From: Eubacteriales bacterium | GTDB lineage: Bacteria; Bacillota; Clostridia; Oscillospirales; CAG-272 | Reading direction: 5' to 3' | NCBI GenBank assembly: GCA_045587385.1 | Contig: JAZNCE010000003.1 | Span: 23,754-87,753, forward strand | Length of the DNA stretch: 64,000 bases | Shown here: in pieces, positions 1 to 42,330 of the stretch | Layout: the number at the start of each line of letters is the position of its first letter | How positions within the stretch are numbered: the stretch's first letter is position 1 | Notes under the pieces: model-generated | Database searches by the model: none | Told to the model about the DNA's origin: nothing | Seen by the model: only the letters and a program-made list of their open reading frames with translations | Made by a program: the position numbers and the translations under genes

Positions 1-1398
1 GCCATCGCTAACGGCTTTTGCATAGCCTCCTTGGTGCTGCTTTTGAAGGCACCCGCCGAGGGCTTTTGGGGGACTGCTATGCTGACCGCCCTGTTCGTGC
101 TTGCCATCGTGCTTGCATCCGTCCTTTTGCGCCTTGCTTTGACGCGCGACCCGAAAGGCTCGGTCAAGCAATGGTTTATCCCGTGCGGTGCAAGTGCCGT
201 CGGCTTGGTGATGGCTATCCTGCTTGGTACGGGCTGGTTCGGCTACGCGACCTATCTGCCCGATCCCATGGACGTGCAATCGGTGACCGTTACCTATAAC
301 CAAAACGTCACGCTGCTCTCCCACTTGGGGCAAAGTGGCTTTTCCATGGCACATGCCCCGGGTTACAAGGGCATTCCCATGTCCGGTACGAACGCAGGGA
401 CCGATACCTATTATCATTTCCTGTATACCCACGGATTTGAAATTAACGAGGATGTTCTTCCCGTCATGACGCATTCCGAGGATATTGCGACTGTGCTTGC
501 CATTCACGAGGCAGTAATCACCGACGGCAGGCAGACCTTTACGGGACAGCCTGCGGATGCGCACGCGCAAACGGTGGTCCCCGTGCTGTTCAGGGTGACC
601 TATACTCTGAAAAACGGAAAAACGGTGGAGCGTTATTATGAATATCTGACGCTTGAAACGCTTGAACAGACGGTGCAGGCAGAGAATACGCACGCAATAC
701 GCGAGGAGATCGCAAATTCCCATGCGGAAAGAGGCTTTGCGGATATAGATACCATTGAGCTCGGAGATCCCTTGTTTGCAAGCTTTACTGCCGTTGATCT
801 TTCGGATCGTGACCGCCAAGCGTTGATCATCGCGCTGGATACGGATAAGGCTGCGCAGATCTCGGATGCTCGCTACTTCTCGGACGAGCCAAACGACGAG
901 GTCATCGGTATCGTCCGTATGTGCAGATCCACGTATGCGTCTGCTATGATGGATAGCAAGCACCCATCGGACAAGGGATACGAGACCTACTACGTGACGG
1001 CTTCGTGGGAAAACACTATGTCGTTTTTGCGCGAAAGGGAATTGGACGCTTGCTTTGAAAGCGAATATACCGTGACCGACGTGCGCTATCAGCGTTATAC
1101 CCCACGTTGCTTTTTGTTGGACAACTACGGTCGGGCGGTGTCCTTCGTATTTTTCTCTTGCGAAAATACCGTGCAGATCAGGCTTTTGGACAGCTTTGAC
1201 GGAATGGATATCAAGGGCAGTGTTGTCAGTGCCACCGATCCCGTACCTGCCGATATGTGGGATGCCTATCTGGATGCCTCCCGCCCCGTGGCACTCATGA
1301 CCCGCCCCGGTGTACTGGTGCAGATCATTCTCACCAATCAAAAGGGAGAGGAAAAGCTGGTGACAAGATACCTCTACGACCAAGACTTGCCCGAGTAA
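1..1398 (+). CDS. membrane protein, C-terminal part (5' end lies outside the window)
   Basis: Frame 1 is open from base 1, with no stop before the ORF-track Met at 31. Two hydrophobic helices (LTALFVLAIVLASVLL, AVGLVMAILLGTGWF) precede a ~380 aa soluble domain. A hairpin terminator follows. No family recognised. Confidence 0.6.
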   Translation, partial: AIANGFCIASLVLLLKAPAEGFWGTAMLTALFVLAIVLASVLLRLALTRDPKGSVKQWFIPCGASAVGLVMAILLGTGWFGYATYLPDPMDVQSVTVTYNQNVTLLSHLGQSGFSMAHAPGYKGIPMSGTNAGTDTYYHFLYTHGFEINEDVLPVMTHSEDIATVLAIHEAVITDGRQTFTGQPADAHAQTVVPVLFRVTYTLKNGKTVERYYEYLTLETLEQTVQAENTHAIREEIANSHAERGFADIDTIELGDPLFASFTAVDLSDRDRQALIIALDTDKAAQISDARYFSDEPNDEVIGIVRMCRSTYASAMMDSKHPSDKGYETYYVTASWENTMSFLRERELDACFESEYTVTDVRYQRYTPRCFLLDNYGRAVSFVFFSCENTVQIRLLDSFDGMDIKGSVVSATDPVPADMWDAYLDASRPVALMTRPGVLVQIILTNQKGEEKLVTRYLYDQDLPE

Positions 1399-1476: not shown

Positions 1477-1505
1477 TTGACAACTGATTTTTATGGTGTT
1501 ATAAT
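1477..1505 (+). promoter_or_regulatory. sigma-A type promoter for T-box leader 1
   Basis: TTGACA (1477-1482), 17-nt spacer, TATAAT (1500-1505) with an upstream TG (TGT-TATAAT). Confidence 0.6.
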
Positions 1506-1536
1506 AGGTTCAAATTTGAATATCACAAATAACGAC

Positions 1537-1806
1537 TGTGATGAAGAGGGTCGGGAAGAGCGTTTACAGAGAGTTGTCGGGCGGTGCGAGACAATGGCGG
1601 GGCTTTCCGTATGACCTATCGCTTCTGAGTCGGAGGACCGAAAGGCTTGCGCCGTGTGCGTTTGCCCGGTAGACTCCTTCCGTATTTGCTGCGTAAAGGC
1701 AAAGGGCTTGACAGAGTCCGGTAAGTGACGGCTATGCCGTAATTTGAGTGGTACCGCGGGTAATGAACTCGTCTCAAAGGGTTTCTTTTGAGGCGGTTTT
1801 TTGTTT
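1537..1806 (+). promoter_or_regulatory. T-box leader (tRNA-sensing riboswitch), specifier most likely AUC (Ile)
   Basis: K-turn/GA motif: GAC-UGU-GA-U-GAAG paired with CUUC-U-GA-GUC. AGAGAG bulge plus distal loop GGGCGGUGCGAG. T-box sequence AATTTGAGTGGTACCGCGGG at 1741-1760. Terminator hairpin CGTCTCAAAGG/TTTTGAGGCG followed by TTTTTTG (1769-1803). The triplet directly 5' of the CUUC helix is AUC followed by G (1618-1621). Confidence 0.85.
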
Positions 1807-1849
1807 TATTCGGATTTGTAATCATTTCGGAGCAAAAGGAGACAAGAGA

Positions 1850-4150
1850 ATGGATTACAGCTTAAAAGAGGTTGCAGGGAGAATCAAGGACCTGCGAGAG
1901 GCGAAAGGGTACAGTCCTGCAGAGCTTGCAAAGCTGACGGGCGTATCGGTCGAGGACTATCTGCTGCTTGAGCAGGGCGAGACCGATTTCAGCTTTACGT
2001 TTATTTATAAGTGCGCCAAGGCGTGCGACGTCGAAGTGGTTGACCTTTTGGAGGGTCGCAGCACCACGCTGACCTCTTTTGCCATTACCAGAAGGGGAGA
2101 GGGACTTAAAATCCTCAAGCAGCACGGCGTAGAATACAACAACCTTGCCCCCAAGTTCAAGGATAAGCTCGCAGAGCCGTTCTTGGTCAAATTCCCGTAC
2201 ATCCCCGAGGAACAGAACGCGCCCATGAAGCTCAACTCGCACAACGGTCAGGAATTTGACGTCATCGTCAAGGGTTCCTTAAAGGTGCAGGTTGGCAATC
2301 ACGTGGATATTCTGCATGAGGGCGATTCCATTTTCTATAACAGCTTGATCCCCCACGGCATGATTGCCGTCAGCGAGGGCGGCTGTGAGTTCCACGCTGT
2401 CGTACTCAATCCGCAGGACGGACTTGTCAGCGAGGAATACCCCGAGGTGCCCTTCACGGCACCCAAGGCGGTGGAGGTCGAAAGCACAGCTGCCACCGTT
2501 GCGGACAACTTCATTGAGTCCTATTACGATGAGAACGGCGTGTTCAACGGCATCAAGTTCAAGAATGAGGACAAATTCAACTTTGCATTTGACTGCGTGG
2601 ACGCGATTGCCAAGAATACCCCCGATAAGCTGGCTATGATGTGGGTGGCAAACGATAAGACCGACCGCAGATTTACGTTTGCCGATATGAAGAAGTATTC
2701 GGCAAAGACCGCCAACTATTTTGAATCTTTGGGCATCAAGAAGGGCGACACCGTCATGCTGGTGCTCAAGCGTCATTATCAGTTCTGGTTCTGCATGCTG
2801 GCATTGCACAAGATCGGTGCAATCGCCATCCCCGCGACCAATCAGCTTGTCGAGCACGATTTTTCCTACAGATATAAGGCTGCAGGCGTCAAAGCAATCG
2901 TGTGCACTGCAGACGGTGAGGTTGCAAACGAGGCAGAGAAGGCAGCGGCACAATTCCCCGGCATGCGCAAGATCCTTGTCGGCGGCAAAAAGGAAGGCTG
3001 GCACGATTATAACGTAGAAATGGAGCGTTTCAGCACGCACTATTTCCGCACCGAAAATACCCCCTGCGGCAACGATCCCATGCTTATGCTGTTCACCTCG
3101 GGCACAACGGGCTATCCCCGTATTGCAACCCACTCGTATAAGTACGCGCTGGGACATTATCCCACCGCAAAGCATTGGCATAACGTCAAGCCCGGCGGCT
3201 TGCACTTCACCATTTCCGATACCGGTTGGGGTAAGGCTCTCTGGGGCAAGCTGTACGGTCAGTGGCTGTGCGAGGCGGCAACCTTTACCTACGACTTTGA
3301 CAGATTCCACTCCGAGGATATTCTGCCCATGTTCGCAAAGTACGGCATCACCACCTTCTGCGCACCTCCTACCATGTACAGATTCTTTATCAAGGAAGAC
3401 CTTTCCAAATACGACCTTTCCTCCATTCAGTATGCCACTACGGCAGGTGAAGCACTCAATCCCGAGGTCTTTAACCGCTTTAAGGAGGCAACGGGACTGA
3501 CCATCATGGAAGGCTTTGGTCAGACCGAAACCACGCTGTCCATTGCCAACTTCGTAGGCTCTACGCCCAAGATCGGTTCTATGGGCAGACCCAGCCCGCT
3601 TTACGACGTGGCGATCTTAGATCCCGACGGCAATCCCTGCCCGATGGGTGACACGGGTGAGATCTGCATCCGCGTGAAGGATGACGCCCCCTGCGGTCTG
3701 TTTATCGGCTACTATCTGGACGAGGAAAAGACGCACGAGGTCTGGCACGACGGCTATTATCACACAGGCGACCAGGCAAGCATGGACGAGGACGGCTACC
3801 TTTGGTACGTTGGCCGTATCGACGACGTTATCAAGTCCTCGGGCTACCGCATCGGCCCGTTCGAGATCGAGAGCGTGATCATGGAGCTGCCCTACGTACT
3901 GGAATGTGCCGTGACGCCCGTACCCGACGAGGTGCGCGGACAGATCGTCAAGGCGACTATCGTGCTTGTCACGGGCACGGACAAGACCGACGCGCTCAAA
4001 AAGGAGATTCAGGAATACGTCAAGACGCACACTGCGCCTTATAAGTACCCCAGAATCGTGGAGTTCGTGGACGAGCTGCCCAAAACCATCAGCGGCAAGG
4101 TCAGACGCGTGGAAATCCGCAAAAACGACCTGCAGAAGCTGCAGAAATGA
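1850..4150 (+). CDS. XRE-HTH / cupin / AMP-forming medium-chain acyl-CoA synthetase fusion protein
   Basis: Start chosen at MDYSLKE, preceded by AAAGGAGA 8 nt upstream. The ORF-track start at 1748 lies inside the T-box terminator region. N-terminus is an XRE-type HTH (GYSPAELAKLTGVSVEDYLLLEQGE). A cupin follows (GQEFDVIVKGSLKVQVG...HEGDSIFYNSLIPHG). The C-terminal ~530 aa is an adenylate-forming enzyme (FTSGTTGYPR, YYHTGD, SSGYRIGPFEIES, GKVRR), resembling the ACSM/MACS class. Confidence 0.85.
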   Translation: MDYSLKEVAGRIKDLREAKGYSPAELAKLTGVSVEDYLLLEQGETDFSFTFIYKCAKACDVEVVDLLEGRSTTLTSFAITRRGEGLKILKQHGVEYNNLAPKFKDKLAEPFLVKFPYIPEEQNAPMKLNSHNGQEFDVIVKGSLKVQVGNHVDILHEGDSIFYNSLIPHGMIAVSEGGCEFHAVVLNPQDGLVSEEYPEVPFTAPKAVEVESTAATVADNFIESYYDENGVFNGIKFKNEDKFNFAFDCVDAIAKNTPDKLAMMWVANDKTDRRFTFADMKKYSAKTANYFESLGIKKGDTVMLVLKRHYQFWFCMLALHKIGAIAIPATNQLVEHDFSYRYKAAGVKAIVCTADGEVANEAEKAAAQFPGMRKILVGGKKEGWHDYNVEMERFSTHYFRTENTPCGNDPMLMLFTSGTTGYPRIATHSYKYALGHYPTAKHWHNVKPGGLHFTISDTGWGKALWGKLYGQWLCEAATFTYDFDRFHSEDILPMFAKYGITTFCAPPTMYRFFIKEDLSKYDLSSIQYATTAGEALNPEVFNRFKEATGLTIMEGFGQTETTLSIANFVGSTPKIGSMGRPSPLYDVAILDPDGNPCPMGDTGEICIRVKDDAPCGLFIGYYLDEEKTHEVWHDGYYHTGDQASMDEDGYLWYVGRIDDVIKSSGYRIGPFEIESVIMELPYVLECAVTPVPDEVRGQIVKATIVLVTGTDKTDALKKEIQEYVKTHTAPYKYPRIVEFVDELPKTISGKVRRVEIRKNDLQKLQK

Positions 4151-4156
4151 GAATTA

Positions 4157-4186
4157 AGAGGCTAAGCCAAATGGCTTAGCCTCTTT
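4157..4186 (+). terminator. rho-independent terminator
   Basis: AGAGGCTAAGCC-AAAT-GGCTTAGCCTCT is a perfect 12-bp stem, followed by TTTG. Confidence 0.7.
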
Positions 4187-4218
4187 GCAATTGTGAAGAT
4201 GTGAAAGAGCGTCCGCGT

Positions 4219-4246
4219 GATGAACCTCATCCACCGCAACCGCGTC
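4219..4246. repeat. outer inverted repeat, left copy (28 bp, perfect partner at 4473-4500)
   Basis: GATGAACCTCATCCACCGCAACCGCGTC is the exact reverse complement of 4473-4500. A further 14-bp arm (4201-4214 vs 4505-4518) matches with 1 mismatch. Confidence 0.9.
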
Positions 4247-4277
4247 GATGATTCTCAGCTCAACGCCTCGAATCCTC

Positions 4278-4314
4278 TCCGCTGCGGTCCCCCTTCCCCA
4301 GCGGGGCAAGGCTT
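4278..4314. repeat. inner inverted repeat, left copy (37 bp, perfect partner at 4408-4444)
   Basis: TCCGCTGCGGTCCCCCTTCCCCAGCGGGGCAAGGCTT is the exact reverse complement of 4408-4444. The ~30-bp segments between outer and inner repeats (4247-4277 vs 4445-4472) are not complementary. Confidence 0.9.
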
Positions 4315-4407
4315 TCTTCGCGCATCCTCGTCGTTTGCTTATCCGTTTGGGGGAAGTGAATTTTCAAATCCGTCTTGTTATTACTTATCGGCAAGGGTAA
4401 CCGCAAC

Positions 4408-4444
4408 AAGCCTTGCCCCGCTGGGGAAGGGGGACCGCAGCGGA
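4408..4444. repeat. inner inverted repeat, right copy
   Basis: Exact reverse complement of 4278-4314. Confidence 0.9.
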
Positions 4445-4472
4445 AGCAGAAACGAGCAGCGCGAGTTTCAAT

Positions 4473-4500
4473 GACGCGGTTGCGGTGGATGAGGTTCATC
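4473..4500. repeat. outer inverted repeat, right copy
   Basis: Exact reverse complement of 4219-4246. Confidence 0.9.
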
Positions 4501-4665
4501 GTAGGGACGCTCCTTCACCAAAAACGGACATTCCCTTGCAAAACTACTAAAATACATAGACCAAATAGTACAAAAAGGGCTATAGTCAACTATAGAGTCA
4601 AGAGTTTTTTCCAAAGTTTGTTATGATTTTTGTTTTTATATTCCACGCATTTTCTTAAAACTGCA

Positions 4666-20625: not shown

Positions 20626-23028
20626 TTAAGCGCGAAGCGCAATACCCAGCTTGAATTTGAGGTCGTTGATGATTTTTTTGGAGATCTTGTCAGCTTCCTC
20701 AACGGTCAGGGTACGGTCAGTTGCACGCAGCGTGACGCGGAATGCAACGCTCTTGTTGCCCACACCCAGCTTTTCGCCGCGGAAGATGTCGAACAGCTCG
20801 ACCTTTTCTACCAGAGCACCGCCTGCCTTGGCGATCACGTTCATGATCTTGCCAACCTCCAGCTCCTCAGCGCAAACGAATGCGTAGTCGCGGGTTGCAG
20901 CGGGGAACTTGGGCAGGGGCTTGTAGTCGGGCTCGGTATTGGAAACCTCGAACAGCGCGTCAAAGTCGATCTCGGCGCAAAGAACGGGAATGTTCATGCC
21001 GTAATTGTCAGCCACAACGGGGTGAATCTGACCGAATACGCCCAGATACTTGCCGTCTGCAGTGGTCACAACAGCACATCTGCCGGGATGGTAAGAGGGA
21101 TTTTCGGAGCAAGCGGTATACTGTGCACCCTTGACGCCTGCCATCTTGAGCAGATTTTCTACAGCACCCTTCATGTCGTAGAAATCAGCGTCGCCGTACA
21201 TGCCCACGGTCACAACCGTCTTTTCCTCGGGCAGGTTCGCGGGATCTGCGTCGGGCAGATAAATGGTAGCCATTTCAAACAGACGCACGTTCTGATTGGA
21301 GAAGTTGTTGTTTCTCTGCAGAACCTCCATCAAAGAGGGCAGCGCGGTGGTACGCATGACGCTGGTGTCCTCGCCAAGCGGGTTGGAAATGACAACAGAG
21401 GTGCGCAGAGAGCTGTCAGCAGGCAGCGCGATTGCGTCGTAGTACTTGGGGCTGATGAAGGAGAAGGTCTGAATCTGCGAGATGCCCATGCCGTACATCA
21501 GCTGCTCGGTTGCCACAAACAGCTTCTGCTTGGGGGTACGCATGCCCTGCGTGGTCTCTGCCTTGATGCAGGAGGAGGGAATCTTGTCATAACCCCAGAT
21601 ACGCACGATCTCTTCTGCAATATCCTGCATGCAGTTAAGGTCGGAGCGGAAGGAAGGCACGTAAATGTTGCCGTTCTCTACGCGGCACTCCAAGGTGGCG
21701 AGAATGTCGATCATGGTCTGCTCGTCGATCTCGGTGCCAAGGAACTTGTTATACTTTTCGGGCGTGAAGGGCAGCACGACCTGCTCCTTCTTGCCGGGGT
21801 AAACGTCGATCAAGCCGTCCACCACGTCACCTGCGCCCAGCATTTCAACCAGCTGGCATGCGCGCATCAAGCCGGGCAGGCAGTTTTCGGGGTCAAGACC
21901 CTTTTCAAAGCGTGCGGAGGATTCGGTTCTCATGCCGTTCTTCTTTGCGGTCACGCGCGTGTCGGGACCGGAGAAGCAAGCGGACTCAAATACTACAGTC
22001 ACGGTGTCGTTCTCGATTTCGCTGTTCAGTCCACCCATAACGCCTGCGAGTGCGCAAGCCTTATTGCCGTCTGCAATGACCAGCATGGAGGAATCCAGGG
22101 TGTGGCTGACGTTGTCAAGAGATACGAATACCTCACCGTCGCCGGCGCGGCGTACGTTGATCTCCTTGCCCTCGATCTGCTTGTAATCGAACGCGTGCAT
22201 GGGCTGACCGTACTCCAGCATGACGTAGTTGGTAATGTCAACGATATTGTTGATGGGGCGCACACCTGCAGCACGCAGACGTCTGCGCATCCATACGGGA
22301 GAGGGAGCGATCTTGACGTTCTTGACTACCTTTGCAGCGTAGCGATAGCAAAGATCGGGCGCGCTGATGCCTACGGAGAGATAGTTATCAATGCTGTCAC
22401 CGTCCTGCGTACCGTTGACGTATACGGGGGGAATGTGCCACTCAAGATCCATGGAAGCTGCCGTCTCGCGTGCAAGACCGATGACGGACAGACAGTCGGG
22501 GCGGTTGGAGGTGATCTCAAACTCGACTACCGTGTCGCGGATCATTTCACAGTCGCAAATATCCTGTCCGAGATATGCTTCGTAGCTCTCGGGCAGAATC
22601 CAGATGCCGTTTTCCTCAACACCGGGGCAGTCGTTGGCGGTCAAGCCCAGCTCTGCAAACGAGCACATCATACCGTTGGAGTCAATGCCGCGCAGCTTAC
22701 CTGCCTTGATCTGCTTGCCCTCAGCCACGGTTGCGGGAGCGACTGCAGCGGGAACGATCGCGCCAACGAATACGTTCTGCGCGCCGGTAACGATCTGAAT
22801 GGGAGCTTCTGCACCCACGTCGATCTGACAGATCCAAAGGTGATCGGAGTCGGGGTGGTGCTCCATAGCAACTACCTTACCAATGCGAACGTTAGAAATA
22901 TCCTCTGCGAGTACCTCGAAGCCCTCTACCTTGGAGCCGGTATCGGTCATGCGGTCGCAGTACTTCTTAACGTCTGCAATCTTGTCTGTATCAATATAAT
23001 CGTGAAGCCAATTAAAAGAAAGATTCAT
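20626..23028 (-). CDS. pheT: phenylalanine--tRNA ligase beta subunit
   Basis: 800 aa. N-terminus MNLSFNWLHDYID, then tRNA-binding, B3/4, B5 and FDX-ACB domains. Confidence 0.96.
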   Translation of the reverse strand: MNLSFNWLHDYIDTDKIADVKKYCDRMTDTGSKVEGFEVLAEDISNVRIGKVVAMEHHPDSDHLWICQIDVGAEAPIQIVTGAQNVFVGAIVPAAVAPATVAEGKQIKAGKLRGIDSNGMMCSFAELGLTANDCPGVEENGIWILPESYEAYLGQDICDCEMIRDTVVEFEITSNRPDCLSVIGLARETAASMDLEWHIPPVYVNGTQDGDSIDNYLSVGISAPDLCYRYAAKVVKNVKIAPSPVWMRRRLRAAGVRPINNIVDITNYVMLEYGQPMHAFDYKQIEGKEINVRRAGDGEVFVSLDNVSHTLDSSMLVIADGNKACALAGVMGGLNSEIENDTVTVVFESACFSGPDTRVTAKKNGMRTESSARFEKGLDPENCLPGLMRACQLVEMLGAGDVVDGLIDVYPGKKEQVVLPFTPEKYNKFLGTEIDEQTMIDILATLECRVENGNIYVPSFRSDLNCMQDIAEEIVRIWGYDKIPSSCIKAETTQGMRTPKQKLFVATEQLMYGMGISQIQTFSFISPKYYDAIALPADSSLRTSVVISNPLGEDTSVMRTTALPSLMEVLQRNNNFSNQNVRLFEMATIYLPDADPANLPEEKTVVTVGMYGDADFYDMKGAVENLLKMAGVKGAQYTACSENPSYHPGRCAVVTTADGKYLGVFGQIHPVVADNYGMNIPVLCAEIDFDALFEVSNTEPDYKPLPKFPAATRDYAFVCAEELEVGKIMNVIAKAGGALVEKVELFDIFRGEKLGVGNKSVAFRVTLRATDRTLTVEEADKISKKIINDLKFKLGIALRA

Positions 23029-23045: not shown

Positions 23046-24056
23046 TCAGAACTGCTCAAGGAAACGTACGTCGTTCTCATAGAACAGACGAATGTCGTCT
23101 ACGTGATACTTGAGCATGGCGATACGCTCGATACCCATACCGAACGCAAAGCCGCTGTATTCCTCGGGGTCAATGCCGCACATGGTCAGCACGTTGGGGT
23201 GCACCATGCCCGCGCCCAGAATTTCGATCCAGCCCTCGCCCTTGCAAAGTCTGCAGCCCTTACCGCCGCAAGCAAAGCAGGAAACGTCCACCTCTGCGCT
23301 GGGCTCGGTGAAGGGGAAGTGGTGGGGACGGAAACGGCAACGGGTGTCCTCGCCGAACTGTGCCTTTGCAAAGGTCTCCAGCATGCCCTTGAGGTCGCCC
23401 ATGGTAATGCCTTTGTCAACGACAAGACCTTCCATCTGATGGAACAGAGGGGAGTGGGTTGCGTCCATCGCGTCGGAACGGTAAACGCGGCCGGGGGAGA
23501 TGATGCGGATCGGAGGCTTCTGTACCTCCATGGTTCTCGCCTGTACGGGAGAGGTCTGCGAGCGCAAGAGGATATTCTCGGTGATGTAGAAGGTGTCCTG
23601 CGTATCGCGCGCGGGGTGATTTTCCGGAATGTTGAGCTTCTGGAAGTTGTAGAGGTCGTACTCTACCTCGGGACCTTCTGCAATAGAGAAGCCCATACCG
23701 ATAAAGATCTCTTCCATATCTCTCTGTACGCGGGTCAGGGGGTGTACGTGACCGACGCGGGTGGTCTTGCCGGGCATGGTAACGTCCAAGCGCTCAGCCT
23801 TGAGCTGCTCTTGGAGCGCGGCTGCCTTCTGTGCTTCTGCCTTTTGGGCAACGGCTGCCTCGATCTCCTCGCGCACCTGGTTTGCCAGCTGACCGATTAC
23901 GGGTCTTTCCTCGGCAGTCAGCTTGCCCATACCGCGCAATACGGCGGTCAGCTCACCCTTTTTGCCAAGGTATTGAATTCTGATCTGCTCAAGATCTTCG
24001 CCTGCAGCAATCTTTTCAAGTGCTGTCTGACGAATTTGATTCAGCATTTCTTTCAT
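23046..24056 (-). CDS. pheS: phenylalanine--tRNA ligase alpha subunit
   Basis: Class II motifs [22 protein letters not shown] and [12 protein letters not shown]. Confidence 0.96.
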
Positions 24057-24074: not shown

Positions 24075-24350
24075 TTTAGAAATTGTTTTTTATAAATATA
24101 AAAAGCCGCCCCATACAAACATGGGACGGCATAAAAACCGCGGTACCACCCAATTAAAGGCGTGTGGCGCATAAGCGCACAAAGCCAACACTCTGCTGAC
24201 AAATAACGGTGTCTGCCGTGCCTCGCTACCCCGAAATGGCTCACAAGACCTGCTCCGAAGGGAAATGCAACCCACGCCCCGCAAGACCGCTCTCAGCCGT
24301 GTCGGTCCTCTCTGTGTGCTTTTGCCGTGTGCGCTGACTTCATCATCGCA
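24075..24350 (-). promoter_or_regulatory. T-box leader, specifier UUC (Phe), controlling pheST
   Basis: All on the minus strand. UGC-GAU-GA-U-GAAG paired with CUUC-G-GA-GCA. AGAGAG plus distal loop. UUC lies directly 5' of the CUUC helix (complement of 24262-24264). T-box sequence AATTGGGTGGTACCGCGG (complement of 24138-24155). Terminator GCCGTCCCAT/ATGGGGCGGC plus a T run (24101-24130). Confidence 0.9.
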
Positions 24351-24361
24351 TTTACCGCTAT

Positions 24362-25512: not shown

Positions 25513-27165
25513 TTATGCCTTGAAGCCGTCACGCAGACCCACGACGCGGTTGAAGGTGTCAGCGTTCTTGGAGTCCTTGCAGAAATAACCTACGCGAACA
25601 AACTGGAACTTTTCACCGGGAGCAGCATCGGCAAGGCAGGGCTCAACCATTGCGCCCTCGATCTTGGAGAGGGACTCGGGGTTGAGGAAGTCCAGGTAGG
25701 TCTTGCCTTCGGGTACGTCAGCGGTGTTTTCAATGTTGAACAGACGGTCGTAGAGCATCACGGTAGCAGGCTTTGCATACTTTGCGGACAGCCAATGAAT
25801 CGTGCCCTTGATCTTTCTGCCGTCAGCAGGCATACCGTTGCCGGTTTCCAGATCAGCGGTTGCGTGGATTTCCTTGATCGAGCCGTCTTCGTTCTTGATA
25901 ATCTCGCCGCAGCGGATGATATAGCCGCCCATCAGGCGCACCTCGCTGTCGGGCTTGAGACGGAAGAACTTGGGAGGCGGAACCTCTGCAAAGTCGTCTG
26001 CATCGATATAGATCTCGCGGGTCATGGGAACCTCGCGCTTGCCCAGCTCCTCCTTCTGGGGATGGTTGGGCAGGCTGATCATCTCTTCCTTATCCTCGGG
26101 ATAGTTATCAATGATGACCTTGATGGGGTTGACGATGGCAACGCGGCGCAGCGCGTTTTCATTCAGGTCGTCGCGCACGCAAGCTTCCAGCTGGCGCACG
26201 TCAACGGTGTGGTCGGTGTTGGTCACGCCTGCTTCTCTGACAAAGGTGAAGAGTGCACTCGGGGTATAACCGCGGCGGCGCAGACCGCAAAGGGTAGGCA
26301 GACGGGGGTCATCCCAACCGTCTACGTGGCCCTCTTCGACCAGCTGACGCAGATAACGCTTGGACATAACGGTATAGGTGATGTTCATGCGACCGAACTC
26401 CCACTGATGAGGGGGCTGCTCAAAGCCGATCTTTTCAATCACCCAGTCGTAAAGCGGACGGTGGTTTCTGAACTCGCTGGAGCACAGAGAATAGGTGATA
26501 CCCTCCAGAGCATCCTGAATGGGATGCGCGAAGTCGTACATGGGATATACGCACCACTCATCGCCTTGGCGGTGATGGTGGATGTGCTTGATTCTGTAAA
26601 TAACGGGGTCACGCAGGTAAGGGTTGTCACTGGAAGGGTCGATCTTTGCGCGCAGCGTGCGAGCACCGTCGGGGAACTCACCGTTCTTCATGCGCTCAAA
26701 CAGCTCAAGATTCTCCTCTACGGAGCGGTTGCGGTAGGGGGATTCCTTGGATGCGACAGAACGGTCGGTGCCCTTGTAATCTGCAAGGTCATCCTTGGAA
26801 AGGTCGCAAACGTACGCGTCGCCCTGCTTGATCAGCTGTACAGCGAACTCATAGCACTTGCCAAAGTAGTCCGAGCCGTAGAAAACGCCGCCCGTGGGGG
26901 TAGCACCCAGCCACTCGAGGTCCTCGCGAATGGAGCGCACGAACTCATCGGACTCCTTTGCGGGGTTGGTGTCGTCGTAGCGAAGGTTGAACAGACCGTT
27001 ATACTTATTTGCAACGTCGGTGTTGATGCAGATCGCCTTGACCGAGCCGATGTGCAAGTAACCGTTGGGCTCGGGCGGGAAGCGGGTGTGGATCTTCTTA
27101 TCGGGCTGTACGCCGAGATCCTCGTTAATGATCTCAAAAATAAAATTGTTGTTGGTTTCTGCCAT
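25513..27165 (-). CDS. glnS: glutamine--tRNA ligase
   Basis: TRFPPEPNGYLHIGS (HIGH), VMSKR (KMSKS) and a GlnRS-type C-terminal beta-barrel region. Confidence 0.93.
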   Translation of the reverse strand: MAETNNNFIFEIINEDLGVQPDKKIHTRFPPEPNGYLHIGSVKAICINTDVANKYNGLFNLRYDDTNPAKESDEFVRSIREDLEWLGATPTGGVFYGSDYFGKCYEFAVQLIKQGDAYVCDLSKDDLADYKGTDRSVASKESPYRNRSVEENLELFERMKNGEFPDGARTLRAKIDPSSDNPYLRDPVIYRIKHIHHHRQGDEWCVYPMYDFAHPIQDALEGITYSLCSSEFRNHRPLYDWVIEKIGFEQPPHQWEFGRMNITYTVMSKRYLRQLVEEGHVDGWDDPRLPTLCGLRRRGYTPSALFTFVREAGVTNTDHTVDVRQLEACVRDDLNENALRRVAIVNPIKVIIDNYPEDKEEMISLPNHPQKEELGKREVPMTREIYIDADDFAEVPPPKFFRLKPDSEVRLMGGYIIRCGEIIKNEDGSIKEIHATADLETGNGMPADGRKIKGTIHWLSAKYAKPATVMLYDRLFNIENTADVPEGKTYLDFLNPESLSKIEGAMVEPCLADAAPGEKFQFVRVGYFCKDSKNADTFNRVVGLRDGFKA

Positions 27166-27187: not shown

Positions 27188-28873
27188 TTAAAGGGTTTCG
27201 AGTATTGCGTTCAGGCGTGCTACGGTGCGATCGTAGCCCAGGATCTGCATGACTGTCCACAGATCGGGCGCGTTGGTCTTACCGGTTACGGCAAGGCGCA
27301 GGAACATGGAAACGTCAGCTACGCTGCCCTTGAATGCGGTGGGATCAGCCTTGTACGCCTTCATATCTGCGGTGTAGCCCAGCGCAGCGCCGATCTCCTT
27401 GATCTTTTCAAACCAAGTATTCATATCGTCGGAAATGTCAAAGGTCTTGATAAAGCCTTCAAGCACAGCCTTGATGTCGGCTCTGTCAAACTGCTCGGGG
27501 TACTGTTCGGTAAGCTCGAACAGCTCGTCGTAGAAGAATCCCATGTAGGGGCGTGCGTCCTTCCAGACGGCGAGGTCCTTACGGGGCTTCTTGCCGCCGC
27601 GACCGATTGCGAAAATATTGACCGCATAAGCGGGATCGCTTGCCAGCAGCGTACCGAACTCGGGATCGTAGGTCTTTGCCCACTCAGTAACAGCCAGCGT
27701 GACCTTCTGTGCGCTCATGCGCGAGATAACGTTCTTGGAAACGTCATTGAGCTTGTTGAAATCGAACAGACAACCCGAAGCACTCATCTTCTTGATGTTA
27801 AAGGGGAACTCGGTGTAGGGCTTTTCGGGGTTCTGCGCGTGCCACTCTTCGTAGTTGGAGTTGAGCAGCGTCATGACGTACTCGCAAACGCACTCGGGCG
27901 CGTAGCCCATAGCAGCGTAGTCGTCCATATTTGCCCCCATATCACGCTTGGAAAGCTTTTTCTTGTTGCCGTTTTCATCCAGGCGCATGATCTGCGAGAT
28001 GTGCATATACTTGGGCAGCTTGAAGCCAAGGTAACGGAACAGCTGAATGTGCTTTGCAAGGCTGGGCAGCCATTCCTCACCGCGAATGACGTGCGTTGTG
28101 CCCATCAGATGGTCATCCACAGCGTGTGCAAAGTGATAGGTGGGAATACCGTCGGACTTGAGCAGCACGAAATCCTCGTCGTTTTCGGGAATGTCAAGTT
28201 TGCCTCTGACAAGGTCGGTGAAGGGCGTTTTCTTTGCGGGATCACCGTCTGCAAGAATACGCAGCACGAAGGGGTTGCCCGCGTCAAGGTTTGCCTTGAC
28301 CTCGTCCATGGTAATAGCGCGTGCCTTGAGCATTTCTGCACGGCGCTCTTCTGCCTGCGCCTGCCAGTCGGTGTTCTTGATCTCTTCCTTTTTATTGATC
28401 GCCTGCAGAGCTTCCAGCTCCGCTTCGGTAGTAAAGCAGGGGTACGCAAGTCCCTTGCTTACCAGATCCTTTGCGTAGGTCTGGTAGATCTCTGCACGTG
28501 CGCTCTGCTTGTAAGGACCGTATGCGCCTTGGTCGCTGACCTTGCCGGTCTCGTCTAAGATCGCGCCCTCGTCAAAGTGAATGCCGTAGTGTGCCAGCGT
28601 CTTGATCAGACCCTCTGCAGCACCGGGCACCTCGCGCTTTGCGTCGGTATCCTCAATACGCAGGAAGAATACGCCGCCGCTCTGGTGCGCCAGACGCTCA
28701 CCGACGGTGGTGGGGAACAAGCCGCCAAAATGCACAAAGCCTGTGGGGCTGGGCGCAAAACGGGTGACCTTTGCACCCTCGGGCAGCTGTCTTGCAGGGT
28801 ATGCCGCCTCAATGTCGGCGGGCGTTTTGGTGATCTGCGGGAAGAGCAGATCTGCTAAAAGCTGATGATCCAT
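27188..28873 (-). CDS. gltX: glutamate--tRNA ligase (long form)
   Basis: TRFAPSPTGFVHFGG, RIEDTD and KLSKRD. Confidence 0.9.
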   Translation of the reverse strand: MDHQLLADLLFPQITKTPADIEAAYPARQLPEGAKVTRFAPSPTGFVHFGGLFPTTVGERLAHQSGGVFFLRIEDTDAKREVPGAAEGLIKTLAHYGIHFDEGAILDETGKVSDQGAYGPYKQSARAEIYQTYAKDLVSKGLAYPCFTTEAELEALQAINKKEEIKNTDWQAQAEERRAEMLKARAITMDEVKANLDAGNPFVLRILADGDPAKKTPFTDLVRGKLDIPENDEDFVLLKSDGIPTYHFAHAVDDHLMGTTHVIRGEEWLPSLAKHIQLFRYLGFKLPKYMHISQIMRLDENGNKKKLSKRDMGANMDDYAAMGYAPECVCEYVMTLLNSNYEEWHAQNPEKPYTEFPFNIKKMSASGCLFDFNKLNDVSKNVISRMSAQKVTLAVTEWAKTYDPEFGTLLASDPAYAVNIFAIGRGGKKPRKDLAVWKDARPYMGFFYDELFELTEQYPEQFDRADIKAVLEGFIKTFDISDDMNTWFEKIKEIGAALGYTADMKAYKADPTAFKGSVADVSMFLRLAVTGKTNAPDLWTVMQILGYDRTVARLNAILETL

Positions 28874-42273: not shown

Positions 42274-42301
42274 ATATAACTCCTCAAACAATATTACGTT
42301 T

Positions 42302-42330
42302 ATTATACCACGGTACGTGCGGGCTGTCAA
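42302..42330 (-). promoter_or_regulatory. sigma-A type promoter for paralog B
   Basis: Minus strand: TTGACA, 17-nt spacer, TATAAT preceded by TGG. Confidence 0.6.

What the first reader, a model, noticed from the sequence alone, without database searches (positions are those of the whole stretch)
1477..1850. An isoleucine-type T-box leader controls an acyl-CoA synthetase rather than ileS or ilv genes
**Seen in the sequence.** The leader has every T-box hallmark.
- K-turn, AGAGAG bulge and GGUGCGAG distal loop.
- The T-box sequence UGGUACCGCG at 1741-1760.
- A terminator hairpin plus U run.

**How I read the specifier.** Stem I can be registered against two references.
- The well-studied glyQS Stem I reads ...GAA-GGC-A|CUUC-GA....
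- The pheST leader in this same window reads UUC-C|CUUC-G-GA-GCA.
- In that register the triplet just before the CUUC helix here is AUC followed by G (1618-1621), the usual Ile specifier.

**Why this is unusual.** The only gene downstream before a strong terminator is an adenylate-forming enzyme of the medium-chain acyl-CoA synthetase (ACSM/MACS) class.
- Established knowledge: T-boxes normally gate aaRS, amino-acid biosynthesis or transport genes.
- Established knowledge: strict anaerobes can make Ile by reductive carboxylation of 2-methylbutyryl-CoA.
- Established knowledge: an archaeal MACS enzyme prefers 2-methylbutyrate.

**Inference.** This could be an Ile-starvation-induced branched-chain acid activation (salvage) route.
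Basis: partly seen in the sequence, partly recalled or inferred. Interest (0 to 1): 0.8.

Follow-up and report, generated by a model that had tools for sequence, protein, structure and literature searches.

The report
Isoleucine T-box gating a branched-acid CoA ligase
A standard tRNA-sensing RNA switch that reads isoleucine controls an enzyme that probably activates 2-methylbutyrate, which points to the genes by which gut and rumen Clostridia make isoleucine and valine from branched short-chain acids.

Summary
Window 1529-1779 is a complete transcriptional T-box leader (Rfam RF00230, 70.1 bits, E 3e-15). It has a 12/12 promoter, a terminator and an overlapping antiterminator.

The specifier is AUC (1618-1620, Ile). 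The Rfam model, family-wide conservation and compensatory base changes in both flanking helices all fix this reading frame.

It is a 766-aa fusion of an XRE-type HTH, a cupin domain and a MACS-type acyl-CoA synthetase. The synthetase part matches the 2-methylbutyrate-preferring Methanosarcina enzyme 3ETC at E 2e-202.

- In 80 related genomes almost every copy of this gene has its own T-box.
- Of 90 leaders that could be read, 72 carry AUC.
- The other 18 belong to a paralog, usually in tandem, and carry GUA or GUC (Val).
- In 18 loci the genes are followed directly by VOR-type 2-oxoacid:ferredoxin oxidoreductase subunits. Where the locus extends far enough, the branched-chain aminotransferase IlvE follows too.

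This strongly supports a salvage route gated by amino-acid starvation: branched acid, then acyl-CoA, then 2-oxoacid, then Ile or Val. Enzyme specificity, tRNA dependence and the role of the HTH-cupin domain remain untested. I found no prior description in the searchable literature.

The parts
1477..1505 (+). Sigma-70-type promoter: -35 TTGACA at 1477-1482, 17-nt spacer with TG, -10 TATAAT at 1500-1505
   Evidence: 12 of 12 consensus matches. The same layout precedes the orthologous leaders.
1512..1526 (+). AAATTTGAATATCAC, a motif conserved in the window's own clade, lying between the -10 box and Stem I. Function unknown.
   Evidence: identical, or differing by a base or two (for example L012, L008), in almost all leaders of the window's clade, while the promoter spacer varies. 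It is absent in distant orthologues.
1534..1631 (+). T-box Stem I. Base helix 1534-1536 with 1629-1631. K-turn 1537-1542 and 1626-1628. Helix GAAG 1543-1546 with CUUC 1622-1625. Helix GGUC 1549-1552 with GACC 1613-1616. AG bulge 1568-1573. Distal loop 1583-1590.
   Evidence: 94.4% of cells paired, 18 of 20 pairs show double-sided changes, and 0 of 500 shuffles reach the observed values.
1618..1620 (+). Specifier triplet AUC (Ile). U1617 precedes it. G1621 and the CUUC helix follow it.
1632..1744 (+). Stem II, Stem IIA/B region and Stem III (1727-1740) of the leader
   Evidence: aligned to Rfam model positions 104-186, with two insertions.
1745..1776 (+). Antiterminator. Pairs 1745-1748 with 1773-1776, and 1756-1760 with 1768-1772. 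The bulge 1749-1755 (UGGUACC) carries the UGGU that pairs with the tRNA 3' end ACCA.
   Evidence: model positions 187-216. TGGTACCGCG is present upstream of nearly all orthologues.
1769..1806 (+). Intrinsic terminator: 12-bp stem at 1769-1796 plus a U-run. Its 5' arm overlaps the 3' arm of the antiterminator.
   Evidence: z = -2.73.
1836..1841 (+). Ribosome-binding site AAGGAG, 8 nt before the ATG
   Evidence: Read directly from the sequence.
1850..4150 (+). Coding sequence of 766 aa: an HTH-cupin-acyl-CoA synthetase fusion
1883..2044 (+). XRE-type HTH_3 domain (residues 12-65). It is strongly acidic.
   Evidence: E 4e-8; residues 1-70 carry a mean net charge of -5.7 across 79 homologues.
2231..2401 (+). 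Cupin_2 domain (residues 128-184) with invariant H131, E135, D137, D159 and H169
   Evidence: Residues 6-188 match the HTH-cupin regulator 1Y9Q.
2603..4099 (+). AMP-binding (residues 252-622) and AMP-binding_C (672-750) domains of a MACS-type acyl-CoA synthetase. The segment SDTGWGKALW (456-465) contains G461 and W465.
4156..4185 (.). Perfect hairpin with 14-bp arms just after the stop codon. Probably the end of the transcription unit. There is no clear U-run on the + strand.

Best explanation
The leader at 1512-1806 is a canonical transcription-attenuating T-box riboswitch specific for tRNA-Ile (anticodon GAU).

**How the switch works.** When isoleucyl-tRNA charging falls, uncharged tRNA-Ile pairs with AUC in Stem I. 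Its free ACCA end pairs with UGGU in the antiterminator bulge. The terminator at 1769-1796 then cannot form, and RNA polymerase reads into the single gene 1850-4150.

**What the gene product does.** The product is a MACS-type acyl-CoA synthetase fused to an HTH-cupin module. It most likely converts 2-methylbutyrate to 2-methylbutyryl-CoA. A VOR-type 2-oxoacid:ferredoxin oxidoreductase, encoded elsewhere in this genome, would reductively carboxylate that to 2-oxo-3-methylvalerate. IlvE would then transaminate it to isoleucine. A sister paralog under a Val T-box does the same for isobutyrate and valine in many relatives.

**Shown here.**
- The RNA anatomy, the reading frame of the specifier and its conservation.
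- The domain architecture of the protein.
- The pairing of Ile and Val specifiers with the two paralogs.
- The gene clustering with VOR and IlvE in relatives.

**Inferred.**
- tRNA dependence of read-through.
- The acid substrate.
- The direction of carbon flow.
- Any role of the HTH-cupin module. My guess is ligand sensing or allosteric control rather than DNA binding.
For: **The RNA.**
- The T-box model matches full length at E 3e-15. The promoter and terminator are present.
- AUC falls in the specifier columns. UUC falls there in the pheST leader of this window, which serves as an internal control.
- The Ile-type leader in L062 scores 106.5 bits, above the gathering score, with AUC. The Val-type leader there shows GUA.
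- 72 of the 76 loci with enough upstream sequence carry TGGTACCGCG 82-225 nt before the start codon.
- Of 90 leaders preceding fusion genes, 72 read AUC (70 scored by the script, plus the window and L023 read by eye). The other 18 read GUA (17) or GUC (1).
- The helix right after the codon covaries: GAAG/CUUC, GAGG/CCUC, GAAA/UUUC, GGAG/CUCC and AGGG/CCCU.
- On the 88-sequence alignment, 94.4% of cells are paired against 27-47% when the partners are slid. 18 of 20 pairs show double-sided changes, and 0 of 500 shuffles reach this.
- The neighbouring frames fail. The frame starting one base earlier (N-A-U) varies among His, Tyr and Asn codons. The frame starting one base later gives UAG in the Val class.

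**The protein and its neighbourhood.**
- 3ETC (MacsMa) matches at E 2e-202 over residues 222-760. MacsMa prefers 2-methylbutyrate (PMC10455477).
- The best NCBIfam model is MbcS, a 2-methylbutyrate/isobutyrate CoA synthetase (PMC10026030).
- 18 loci carry ParA-like and VOR genes (VOR alpha only, cut by the locus end, in three of them) directly after the synthetase gene or genes. IlvE follows wherever the locus extends far enough.
- The VOR alpha subunit passes the VorB subfamily cutoff (556.6 against 399). IlvE passes its equivalog cutoff (499 against 307).
- In the synthetase domain, the only position that separates the Ile and Val classes without exception is G461A. It lies four residues before W465, which aligns with the pocket residue Trp259 of MacsMa. 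MacsMa has Gly at the position of 461.
- The pattern recurs outside Oscillospirales: a Solobacterium copy has a GUC T-box.
- An orthologue exists in Ruminococcus flavefaciens (L078). From my own knowledge, this species needs branched-chain volatile fatty acids for growth.
Against: - No VOR or ilvE gene lies in the 64-kb window. In the window's own clade the gene stands alone.
- The window leader scores below Rfam's gathering score (70.1 against 93).
- The protein scores far below the MbcS equivalog cutoff (452 against 850), so its substrate cannot be transferred by annotation.
- MacsMa adenylates many C3-C8 acids (PMC10455477), so family similarity does not pin down the acid.
- The G461A difference could be lineage history alone, since the Val class is monophyletic on full-length trees.
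- Three orthologues (L033, L061, L063) and a Lachnospiraceae pair (L082) lack a T-box.
- Nothing here measures RNA, tRNA or enzyme activity.
Confidence: 0.72

Rival explanations
1. The T-box control by Ile is the same, but the enzyme activates propionate. Propionyl-CoA is reductively carboxylated to 2-oxobutyrate, which enters the ordinary ilv pathway to isoleucine.
For: MacsMa-type enzymes adenylate C3-C8 acids (PMC10455477). From my own knowledge, 2-oxobutyrate synthesis from propionate is a known anaerobic route. An Ile specifier and a neighbouring 2-oxoacid oxidoreductase fit this route equally well.
Against: - The clusters hold only VOR and IlvE, with no ilvBN, ilvC or ilvD.
- The Val-class paralog has Ala where the Ile class and MacsMa have Gly. 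That suggests the Val enzyme takes the smaller acid, which fits C5 against C4 but not C3 against C4.
- The oxidoreductase alpha subunit matches the VorB (3-methyl-2-oxobutanoate) subfamily.
Confidence: 0.12
2. The enzyme supplies branched acyl-CoA primers for branched-chain membrane fatty acids, as MbcS does in Staphylococcus aureus, rather than for amino-acid synthesis.
For: The best-scoring NCBIfam model is MbcS. MbcS activates 2-methylbutyrate and isobutyrate for FabH priming (PMC10026030).
Against: - A T-box reports tRNA charging, not membrane state.
- The two paralogs have separate Ile and Val specifiers.
- The genes cluster with VOR and IlvE, not with fab genes.
- The score is far below the MbcS cutoff (452 against 850).
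Confidence: 0.07
3. The protein is mainly a regulator. In this reading the synthetase or cupin part senses a ligand and the HTH controls other genes, so the T-box gates a transcription factor.
For: A complete HTH_3 + Cupin_2 module is present. Some paralogs (P0127) have lost the P-loop and the A10 lysine yet persist next to an active copy.
Against: - The window protein keeps the catalytic motifs TSGTTGYPR and PKTISGK. It matches MacsMa at E 2e-202.
- The HTH region is acidic in all 79 homologues, with a mean charge of -5.7. That argues against DNA binding.
Confidence: 0.05
4. The specifier is misread and the leader responds to another tRNA, for example Tyr (UAU), Ser (UCG) or Asp (GAC).
For: The 3' side of the loop region, UAUGACCUAUCG, contains several triplets. 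The Rfam alignment has only moderate posterior probability there.
Against: - GACC at 1613-1616 is paired with GGUC at 1549-1552, and that helix covaries.
- Only AUC is invariant across the 72 Ile-class leaders, while the flanking bases vary.
- The Val-class paralog would read UAG in the frame starting one base later.
- The position matches the TBDB rule: codon, then one base, then the helix (PMC7778990).
Confidence: 0.02

Closest known systems
T-box leaders (Rfam RF00230) of ileS and ilv-leu operons, with AUC specifier
   Same: Same architecture: K-turn, specifier loop, AG bulge with distal loop, Stem II, IIA/B and III, UGGN bulge, and competing terminator and antiterminator. Same AUC specifier. 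Same presumed ligand, uncharged tRNA-Ile.
   Different: - The controlled gene is an acyl-CoA synthetase fusion, not a tRNA synthetase, canonical biosynthetic gene or transporter.
- The specifier loop is compact (2 nt on the 5' side, 5 nt on the 3' side) because an extra covarying helix (1549-1552 with 1613-1616) sits directly above the codon.
- The window copy scores below Rfam's gathering score.
Methanosarcina acetivorans medium-chain acyl-CoA synthetase MacsMa (PDB 3ETC)
   Same: E 2e-202 over residues 222-760. The Trp that aligns with pocket residue Trp259 is conserved as window W465. Gly is present at the position of window residue 461.
   Different: MacsMa is an archaeal, stand-alone enzyme with no HTH-cupin domain and no T-box. 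Its physiological role was not tied to isoleucine synthesis in the paper I read (PMC10455477).
Staphylococcus aureus MbcS (methylbutyryl-CoA synthetase)
   Same: It is the best-scoring NCBIfam model. It activates 2-methylbutyrate and isobutyrate (PMC10026030), the same two acids implied by the Ile and Val specifiers.
   Different: - MbcS feeds fatty-acid priming.
- The window protein scores 452 against a cutoff of 850, so it is not an equivalog.
- MbcS has no N-terminal fusion.
Reductive carboxylation of branched-chain volatile fatty acids to branched-chain amino acids in rumen bacteria (classical labelling work; 2-methylbutyrate to Ile and isobutyrate to Val, as summarised in PMC7356843)
   Same: The predicted pathway steps and the taxa match. 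An orthologue is present in Ruminococcus flavefaciens (L078).
   Different: In what I could read, the classical work did not name the genes or their regulation. Here a specific synthetase, VOR and IlvE gene set and a tRNA-sensing control are proposed.
HTH_3-cupin transcriptional regulators (for example PDB 1Y9Q)
   Same: Residues 6-188 align end to end with 1Y9Q. Pfam HTH_3 and Cupin_2 both hit.
   Different: Here the module is fused to an enzyme, and its HTH is strongly acidic. DNA binding is doubtful.

Membership tests
T-box leader (RF00230) | Stem I with a K-turn at the base and a specifier triplet followed by one base and a helix | tested here: met
   The K-turn is UGUGAU / UGA. AUC is at 1618-1620, then G1621, then CUUC. 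All four pairs of the helix below the codon show compensatory changes.
T-box leader (RF00230) | Stem I distal platform: AG bulge (AGAGA) and distal loop (GGUGNRA) | tested here: met
   AGAGAG is at 1568-1573 and GGUGCGAG at 1583-1590. In the 88-sequence alignment AGAGA is invariant and the G, U and G of the distal-loop GGUG are nearly invariant.
T-box leader (RF00230) | Conserved T-box sequence with UGGN in the antiterminator bulge, N matching the tRNA discriminator base | tested here: met
   UGGUACCGCG is at 1749-1758. U would pair with discriminator base A73. A tRNA-Val(GAC) in related locus L040 has A before its CCA end. No tRNA-Ile gene was available to check.
T-box leader (RF00230) | Mutually exclusive antiterminator and intrinsic terminator | tested here: met
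   The antiterminator 3' arm (1768-1776) overlaps the terminator 5' arm (1769-1781).
T-box leader (RF00230) | Score at or above Rfam's gathering threshold (93 bits) | tested here: inconclusive
   The window copy scores 70.1 bits with E 3e-15, below the threshold. The pheST leader of the same window is also below it at 85.6. The orthologous Ile-type leader in L062 scores 106.5.
T-box leader (RF00230) | Read-through that depends on uncharged cognate tRNA | not testable with these tools
   This needs in vitro transcription or in vivo reporter assays.
MACS/ACSM-type acyl-CoA synthetase (ANL superfamily) | AMP-binding and AMP-binding_C domains with an intact P-loop and A10 lysine | tested here: met
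   (E 1e-59 and 2e-22). TSGTTGYPR and PKTISGKVRR are present in the translation.
MACS/ACSM-type acyl-CoA synthetase (ANL superfamily) | Alternate pocket Trp (MacsMa Trp259) conserved | tested here: met
   Window W465 aligns with 3ETC chain residue 282, which is native Trp259. I checked the offset of 23 on Gly459-Lys461, Arg490, Lys519, Tyr525 and Tyr527 (PMC10455477). W465 is invariant in 79 homologues.
MACS/ACSM-type acyl-CoA synthetase (ANL superfamily) | Preference for 2-methylbutyrate | not testable with these tools
   This needs enzyme kinetics.
MbcS equivalog (NF047394) | Score at or above the curated cutoff (850 bits) | tested here: not met
   452.5 bits. It is the best-scoring model but the protein is not an equivalog, so I do not file it as MbcS.
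HTH_3-cupin transcription regulators | HTH_3 and Cupin_2 domains in that order | tested here: met
   and the end-to-end match to 1Y9Q.
HTH_3-cupin transcription regulators | Sequence-specific DNA binding | tested here: inconclusive
   Residues 1-70 carry a net charge of -1 to -11 (mean -5.7) in 79 homologues, and the recognition-helix region has a mean of -3.7. That is unusual for a DNA-binding HTH. No operator was identified.
Branched-acid to branched-chain amino-acid salvage module (acyl-CoA synthetase + VOR + IlvE) | Synthetase, VOR subunits and IlvE encoded together | tested here: not met
   They are absent from this 64-kb window (tblastn). VOR genes are present directly downstream in 18 related loci, and IlvE follows wherever the locus extends far enough. 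For this genome the partner genes are therefore assumed to lie elsewhere.

The most novel reading that the evidence does not exclude
The T-box, synthetase, VOR and IlvE genes form a dedicated, widespread salvage system in gut and rumen Clostridia. In this reading each branched-chain acid has its own synthetase paralog and its own matching tRNA-sensing riboswitch (Ile for 2-methylbutyrate, Val for isobutyrate).

The fused HTH-cupin module would add a second, protein-level layer of control that has not been described. The cupin would bind the end-product amino acid or the acid substrate and switch the enzyme, or a DNA or RNA contact, on or off. The protein would then be both enzyme and sensor, loosely as BirA is for biotin.
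Probability: 0.25. Interest if true: 0.85.

Novelty: new variant of a known kind. Interest (0 to 1): 0.7.

Why it matters
Cellulolytic ruminococci and many gut Clostridia have been known for decades to need or use branched-chain volatile fatty acids, and to turn them into Ile, Val and Leu. In the literature I could search, no gene set or regulation was assigned to this.

This locus and its relatives provide several things.
- **A candidate gene set:** synthetase paralogs, a ParA-like protein, VOR and IlvE.
- **A built-in functional label:** the riboswitch specifier says which amino acid each paralog serves.
- **A culturable test organism:** R. flavefaciens.
- **A candidate specificity switch:** G461A.

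It also widens the range of gene classes that T-boxes control. It shows that default Rfam thresholds miss these leaders. The practical links are to isoacid feed supplements in ruminants and to cross-feeding of protein-fermentation products in the gut.

Tried and rejected
- **Rfam at gathering threshold.** It found nothing in the window. E-value mode was needed.
- **Single-sequence folding of Stem I.** It was uninformative (z = +0.63). It did, however, hint at the GGUC/GACC helix that covariation later confirmed.
- **My first specifier-finding scripts.** They failed or chose the wrong K-turn, for example TGAA-TATC in the 5' motif. Even the anchored version mis-assigned the window and missed L023, so I read both by eye.
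- **VOR and IlvE in the window.** tblastn was negative. Pfam scans of 24 other window ORFs found no branched-chain amino-acid genes.
- **tRNA-Ile genes.** I looked for one to check the discriminator base. There are none in the window or in 60 loci. Only a tRNA-Val(GAC) with A73 turned up.
- **Literature.** Five full-text searches combined T-box, acyl-CoA synthetase, 2-methylbutyrate, reductive carboxylation, VOR and Ruminococcus terms. A sixth added branched-chain volatile fatty acids and Ruminococcus flavefaciens. None described this association. Wels 2008 and the RegPrecise paper do not mention CoA ligases. Two T-box papers I looked up by PMC id were not held, so I could not check them.
- **A/T-rich palindrome upstream of -35.** I considered it as an operator for the HTH. 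I rejected this because it fits a generic UP element and also precedes the pheS promoter.
- **AAATTTGAATATCAC motif as operator.** Left unresolved.
- **G461 next to the pocket Trp.** I first placed it adjacent. After checking residue numbering I corrected this: Trp259 aligns with W465, so G461 lies four residues before it.
- **Structure prediction.** Not run, because the tools return no coordinates from which pocket distances could be measured.

Full report
**1. What is in the sequence**

The region 1477-1850 holds a complete regulatory leader.
- A consensus promoter, TTGACA-17-TATAAT with an extended TG, lies at 1477-1505.
- Rfam's T-box model RF00230 aligns end to end at 1529-1779, with 70.1 bits and E 3e-15 when 501 bases are searched. 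Over the whole window the E-value is 3.8e-13.
- The curated gathering score in this Rfam release is 93 bits. The default scan therefore reports no RNA family anywhere in the window.
- The second T-box, upstream of pheS and pheT (24119-24355, minus strand, 85.6 bits), is missed in the same way.
- An intrinsic terminator follows at 1769-1796 with a U-run. Its fold has z = -2.7 against shuffles.
- The 5' arm of the terminator overlaps the 3' arm of the antiterminator (1745-1776). The antiterminator bulge is UGGUACC at 1749-1755.
- An AAGGAG ribosome-binding site lies 8 nt before the ATG at 1850.

**2. The specifier**

The covariance model places AUC (1618-1620) in the columns that hold the specifier. 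G1621 and the helix CUUC (1622-1625) follow. Three controls use the same columns.
- The pheST leader of this window gives UUC.
- A leader before a leuA-like gene in L062 gives CUC.
- A Val-type leader in L062 gives GUA.

I then collected 80 loci from one-genome-per-species contigs that encode relatives of the downstream protein at 61-91% identity. Of the 76 loci with enough upstream sequence, 72 have TGGTACCGCG 82-225 nt before the start codon.

An alignment of 88 Stem I sequences was folded by RNAalifold and counted.
- 94.4% of cells form standard pairs, against 27-47% when the partners are slid by 1-3 columns.
- 18 of 20 pairs show changes on both sides.
- 0 of 500 shuffles reach the observed values.

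The helix directly after the codon appears as GAAG/CUUC, GAGG/CCUC, GAAA/UUUC, GGAG/CUCC and AGGG/CCCU.

A further helix directly before the codon also covaries (UA 44, CG 30, AU 3 at one pair). In the window it is GGUC 1549-1552 with GACC 1613-1616. The 3' side of the specifier loop is therefore only five bases: N, the codon, N.

Within that loop, the middle triplet is invariant in each class while both flanking bases vary. The frame starting one base earlier gives a mix of His, Tyr and Asn codons. The frame starting one base later gives UAG in the second class. This matches the TBDB rule of codon, one base, then the end of the loop (PMC7778990). The Ile reading is as secure as sequence analysis can make it.

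The Rfam model treats the extra helix as unpaired bases plus an insertion. I infer that this contributes to the low score.

**3. The gene**

The ORF 1850-4150 encodes 766 aa. Pfam finds four domains.

| Domain | Residues |
|---|---|
| HTH_3 | 12-65 |
| Cupin_2 | 128-184 |
| AMP-binding | 252-622 |
| AMP-binding_C | 672-750 |

- Residues 222-760 match PDB 3ETC, the Methanosarcina acetivorans medium-chain acyl-CoA synthetase, at E 2e-202. That enzyme prefers 2-methylbutyrate (PMC10455477).
- The best NCBIfam model is MbcS, the S. aureus synthetase for 2-methylbutyrate and isobutyrate (PMC10026030). The score, 452 bits, is well under the cutoff of 850, so I do not call the protein MbcS.
- Residues 6-188 align end to end with the HTH-cupin regulator 1Y9Q.
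- The fusion is common. Thousands of database proteins share the full architecture, mostly from Clostridia metagenome bins.
- The HTH part is acidic in all 79 full-length homologues I extracted. The net charge of residues 1-70 has a mean of -5.7 and a range of -11 to -1.
- The cupin keeps H131, E135, D137, D159 and H169 invariant.

I read this as a ligand-binding or regulatory module whose DNA binding is doubtful. That is an inference.

**4. Comparative evidence for function**

Of 90 fusion genes preceded by a T-box with enough sequence to read, 72 have AUC. The other 18 have GUA (17) or GUC (1) (the window and L023 were read by eye).
- The Val-specifier genes are a distinct paralog. They are monophyletic on N-terminal and full-length trees.
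- The paralog usually lies in tandem directly after the Ile-specifier gene, and each copy has its own promoter and T-box.
- In 18 loci the synthetase gene or genes are followed directly by a ParA/CbiA-like P-loop gene and 2-oxoacid:ferredoxin oxidoreductase genes. Alpha, beta and gamma are all seen in 15 loci; only alpha in three that the locus end cuts.
- Where the locus extends far enough, a class IV aminotransferase follows.
- In L062 the alpha subunit passes the NCBIfam VorB subfamily cutoff (3-methyl-2-oxobutanoate dehydrogenase, 556.6 against 399). The aminotransferase passes the branched-chain aminotransferase equivalog cutoff (499 against 307).

Three further contexts were fetched through other family members.
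- A Solobacterium contig with a GUC T-box before a single fusion gene.
- Two contigs (L081 and L084) with an AUC T-box, a fusion gene and then a degenerate second fusion gene. In L081 an aminotransferase follows; L084 ends before that point.
- A Lachnospiraceae contig without a T-box, where two fusion genes lie divergent from VOR and leuA-like genes.

One orthologue is in Ruminococcus flavefaciens SAb67 (L078). From my own knowledge, this species has a classical growth requirement for branched-chain volatile fatty acids.

Rumen work cited in PMC7356843 states that 2-methylbutyrate is a precursor of Ile and isobutyrate a precursor of Val.

**5. A possible specificity determinant**

Comparing 64 Ile-class and 15 Val-class proteins, only two positions separate the classes completely: K54R in the HTH and G461A.
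- G461 lies in the invariant segment SDTGW-G/A-KA-L/M-WGKLYGQW. It is four residues before W465.
- W465 aligns with MacsMa Trp259, the residue reported as critical for acyl-substrate binding (PMC10455477). I checked the numbering offset of 23 on seven other residues.
- MacsMa has Gly at the position of 461.
- L464M, L584I and I747T are further near-complete differences.

A bulkier residue in the Val class fits a smaller acid, isobutyrate against 2-methylbutyrate. It fits less well with the rival idea that the Ile-class enzyme takes propionate. The Val class is a single clade, so this could also be history rather than selection.

**6. Mechanism proposed**

Low charging of tRNA-Ile stabilises the antiterminator and the gene is transcribed. 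The enzyme then makes 2-methylbutyryl-CoA from external 2-methylbutyrate. VOR carboxylates it reductively and IlvE makes isoleucine.

The RNA anatomy, the specifier, the paralog-specifier pairing and the gene clustering are shown. The substrate, the carbon flow, the tRNA dependence and the role of the HTH-cupin module are inferred.

In this window the gene stands alone. It lies between an unannotated 455-aa ORF and a glycoside hydrolase gene that has its own promoter. No VOR or ilvE lies within the 64 kb. The partner enzymes must be encoded elsewhere if the model holds.

**7. Comparison with what is known, and novelty**

As an RNA this is an ordinary class I transcriptional T-box, and I file it in RF00230. 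The orthologue in L062 passes the curated threshold.

What differs is the cargo and the system around it.
- The cargo is an acid-activating enzyme of a non-canonical amino-acid route.
- The enzyme is fused to a regulator-like module.
- It is duplicated into Ile and Val versions with matching specifiers.

Six full-text searches and two T-box survey papers gave no description of this. Two T-box papers I looked up by PMC id were not available, so prior mention cannot be excluded. Databases such as TBDB probably list these leaders without interpretation.

I rate it a new variant of a known kind, with interest 0.7. The RNA mechanism is unsurprising. The finding does turn an old physiological observation into a testable gene-level model.

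Noticed in passing
window 1512-1526: AAATTTGAATATCAC lies between the -10 box and Stem I. It is identical, or differs by a base or two, in almost all leaders of the window's own clade, while the promoter spacer varies. It is absent in distant orthologues. It could be an operator or a 5' RNA element; its function is unknown.
   Followed up: partly
window 4201-4518: A G+C-rich nested inverted repeat. Two pairs of 56-nt arms are 84% complementary. A 33-nt core is present exactly once on each strand. It lies in the intergenic region after the synthetase gene.
   Followed up: partly
window 24119-24355 (minus strand): A second T-box with a UUC (Phe) specifier lies upstream of pheS (23046-24056) and pheT (20626-23028). 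At 85.6 bits it is also below Rfam's gathering score of 93, so default scans miss both T-boxes of this window.
   Followed up: yes
L001 784-5567; also L005, L009, L011, L041, L047, L053, L072: A Leu (CUC) T-box precedes a leuA-like gene (462 aa). In L001 an 819-aa fusion of a xylose-isomerase-like TIM barrel (AP_endonuc_2) with an AMP-binding CoA ligase follows, and then an Amidohydro_2 gene. The other loci carry a weak synthetase-like match in the same place. This may be another T-box-linked CoA-ligase fusion.
   Followed up: partly
L081 4493-6769 (P0127); L084 6001-8268 (P0273): A second HTH-cupin-synthetase fusion follows an Ile-T-box copy. P0127 has a degenerate P-loop (QSYSYG in place of TSGTTG) and has lost the A10 lysine, so it is probably a pseudo-enzyme. 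An Aminotran_1_2 gene comes next in L081.
   Followed up: partly
L059 around 8544: A T-box lies directly before the ParA-like + VOR + IlvE genes. Its specifier is ambiguous: the loop reads C-UGC-A, so Leu CUG, Cys UGC or Ala GCA are all possible.
   Followed up: no
L062 8285-8953 and the equivalent gene in 17 other loci: A ParA/CbiA-like P-loop protein (about 220 aa, with weak similarity to NUBPL iron-transfer NTPases) always sits between the synthetase genes and the VOR genes. It may help Fe-S cluster maturation of VOR.
   Followed up: no
window 31-1398, 36750-39437, 39622-42330: Three long ORFs (455, 894 and 901 aa) have no Pfam match. The first also has no NCBIfam match.
   Followed up: no
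window 25513-27165 and 27188-28873 (minus strand): Two adjacent class I Glu/Gln-type tRNA synthetase genes. No T-box was detected upstream of them.
   Followed up: no
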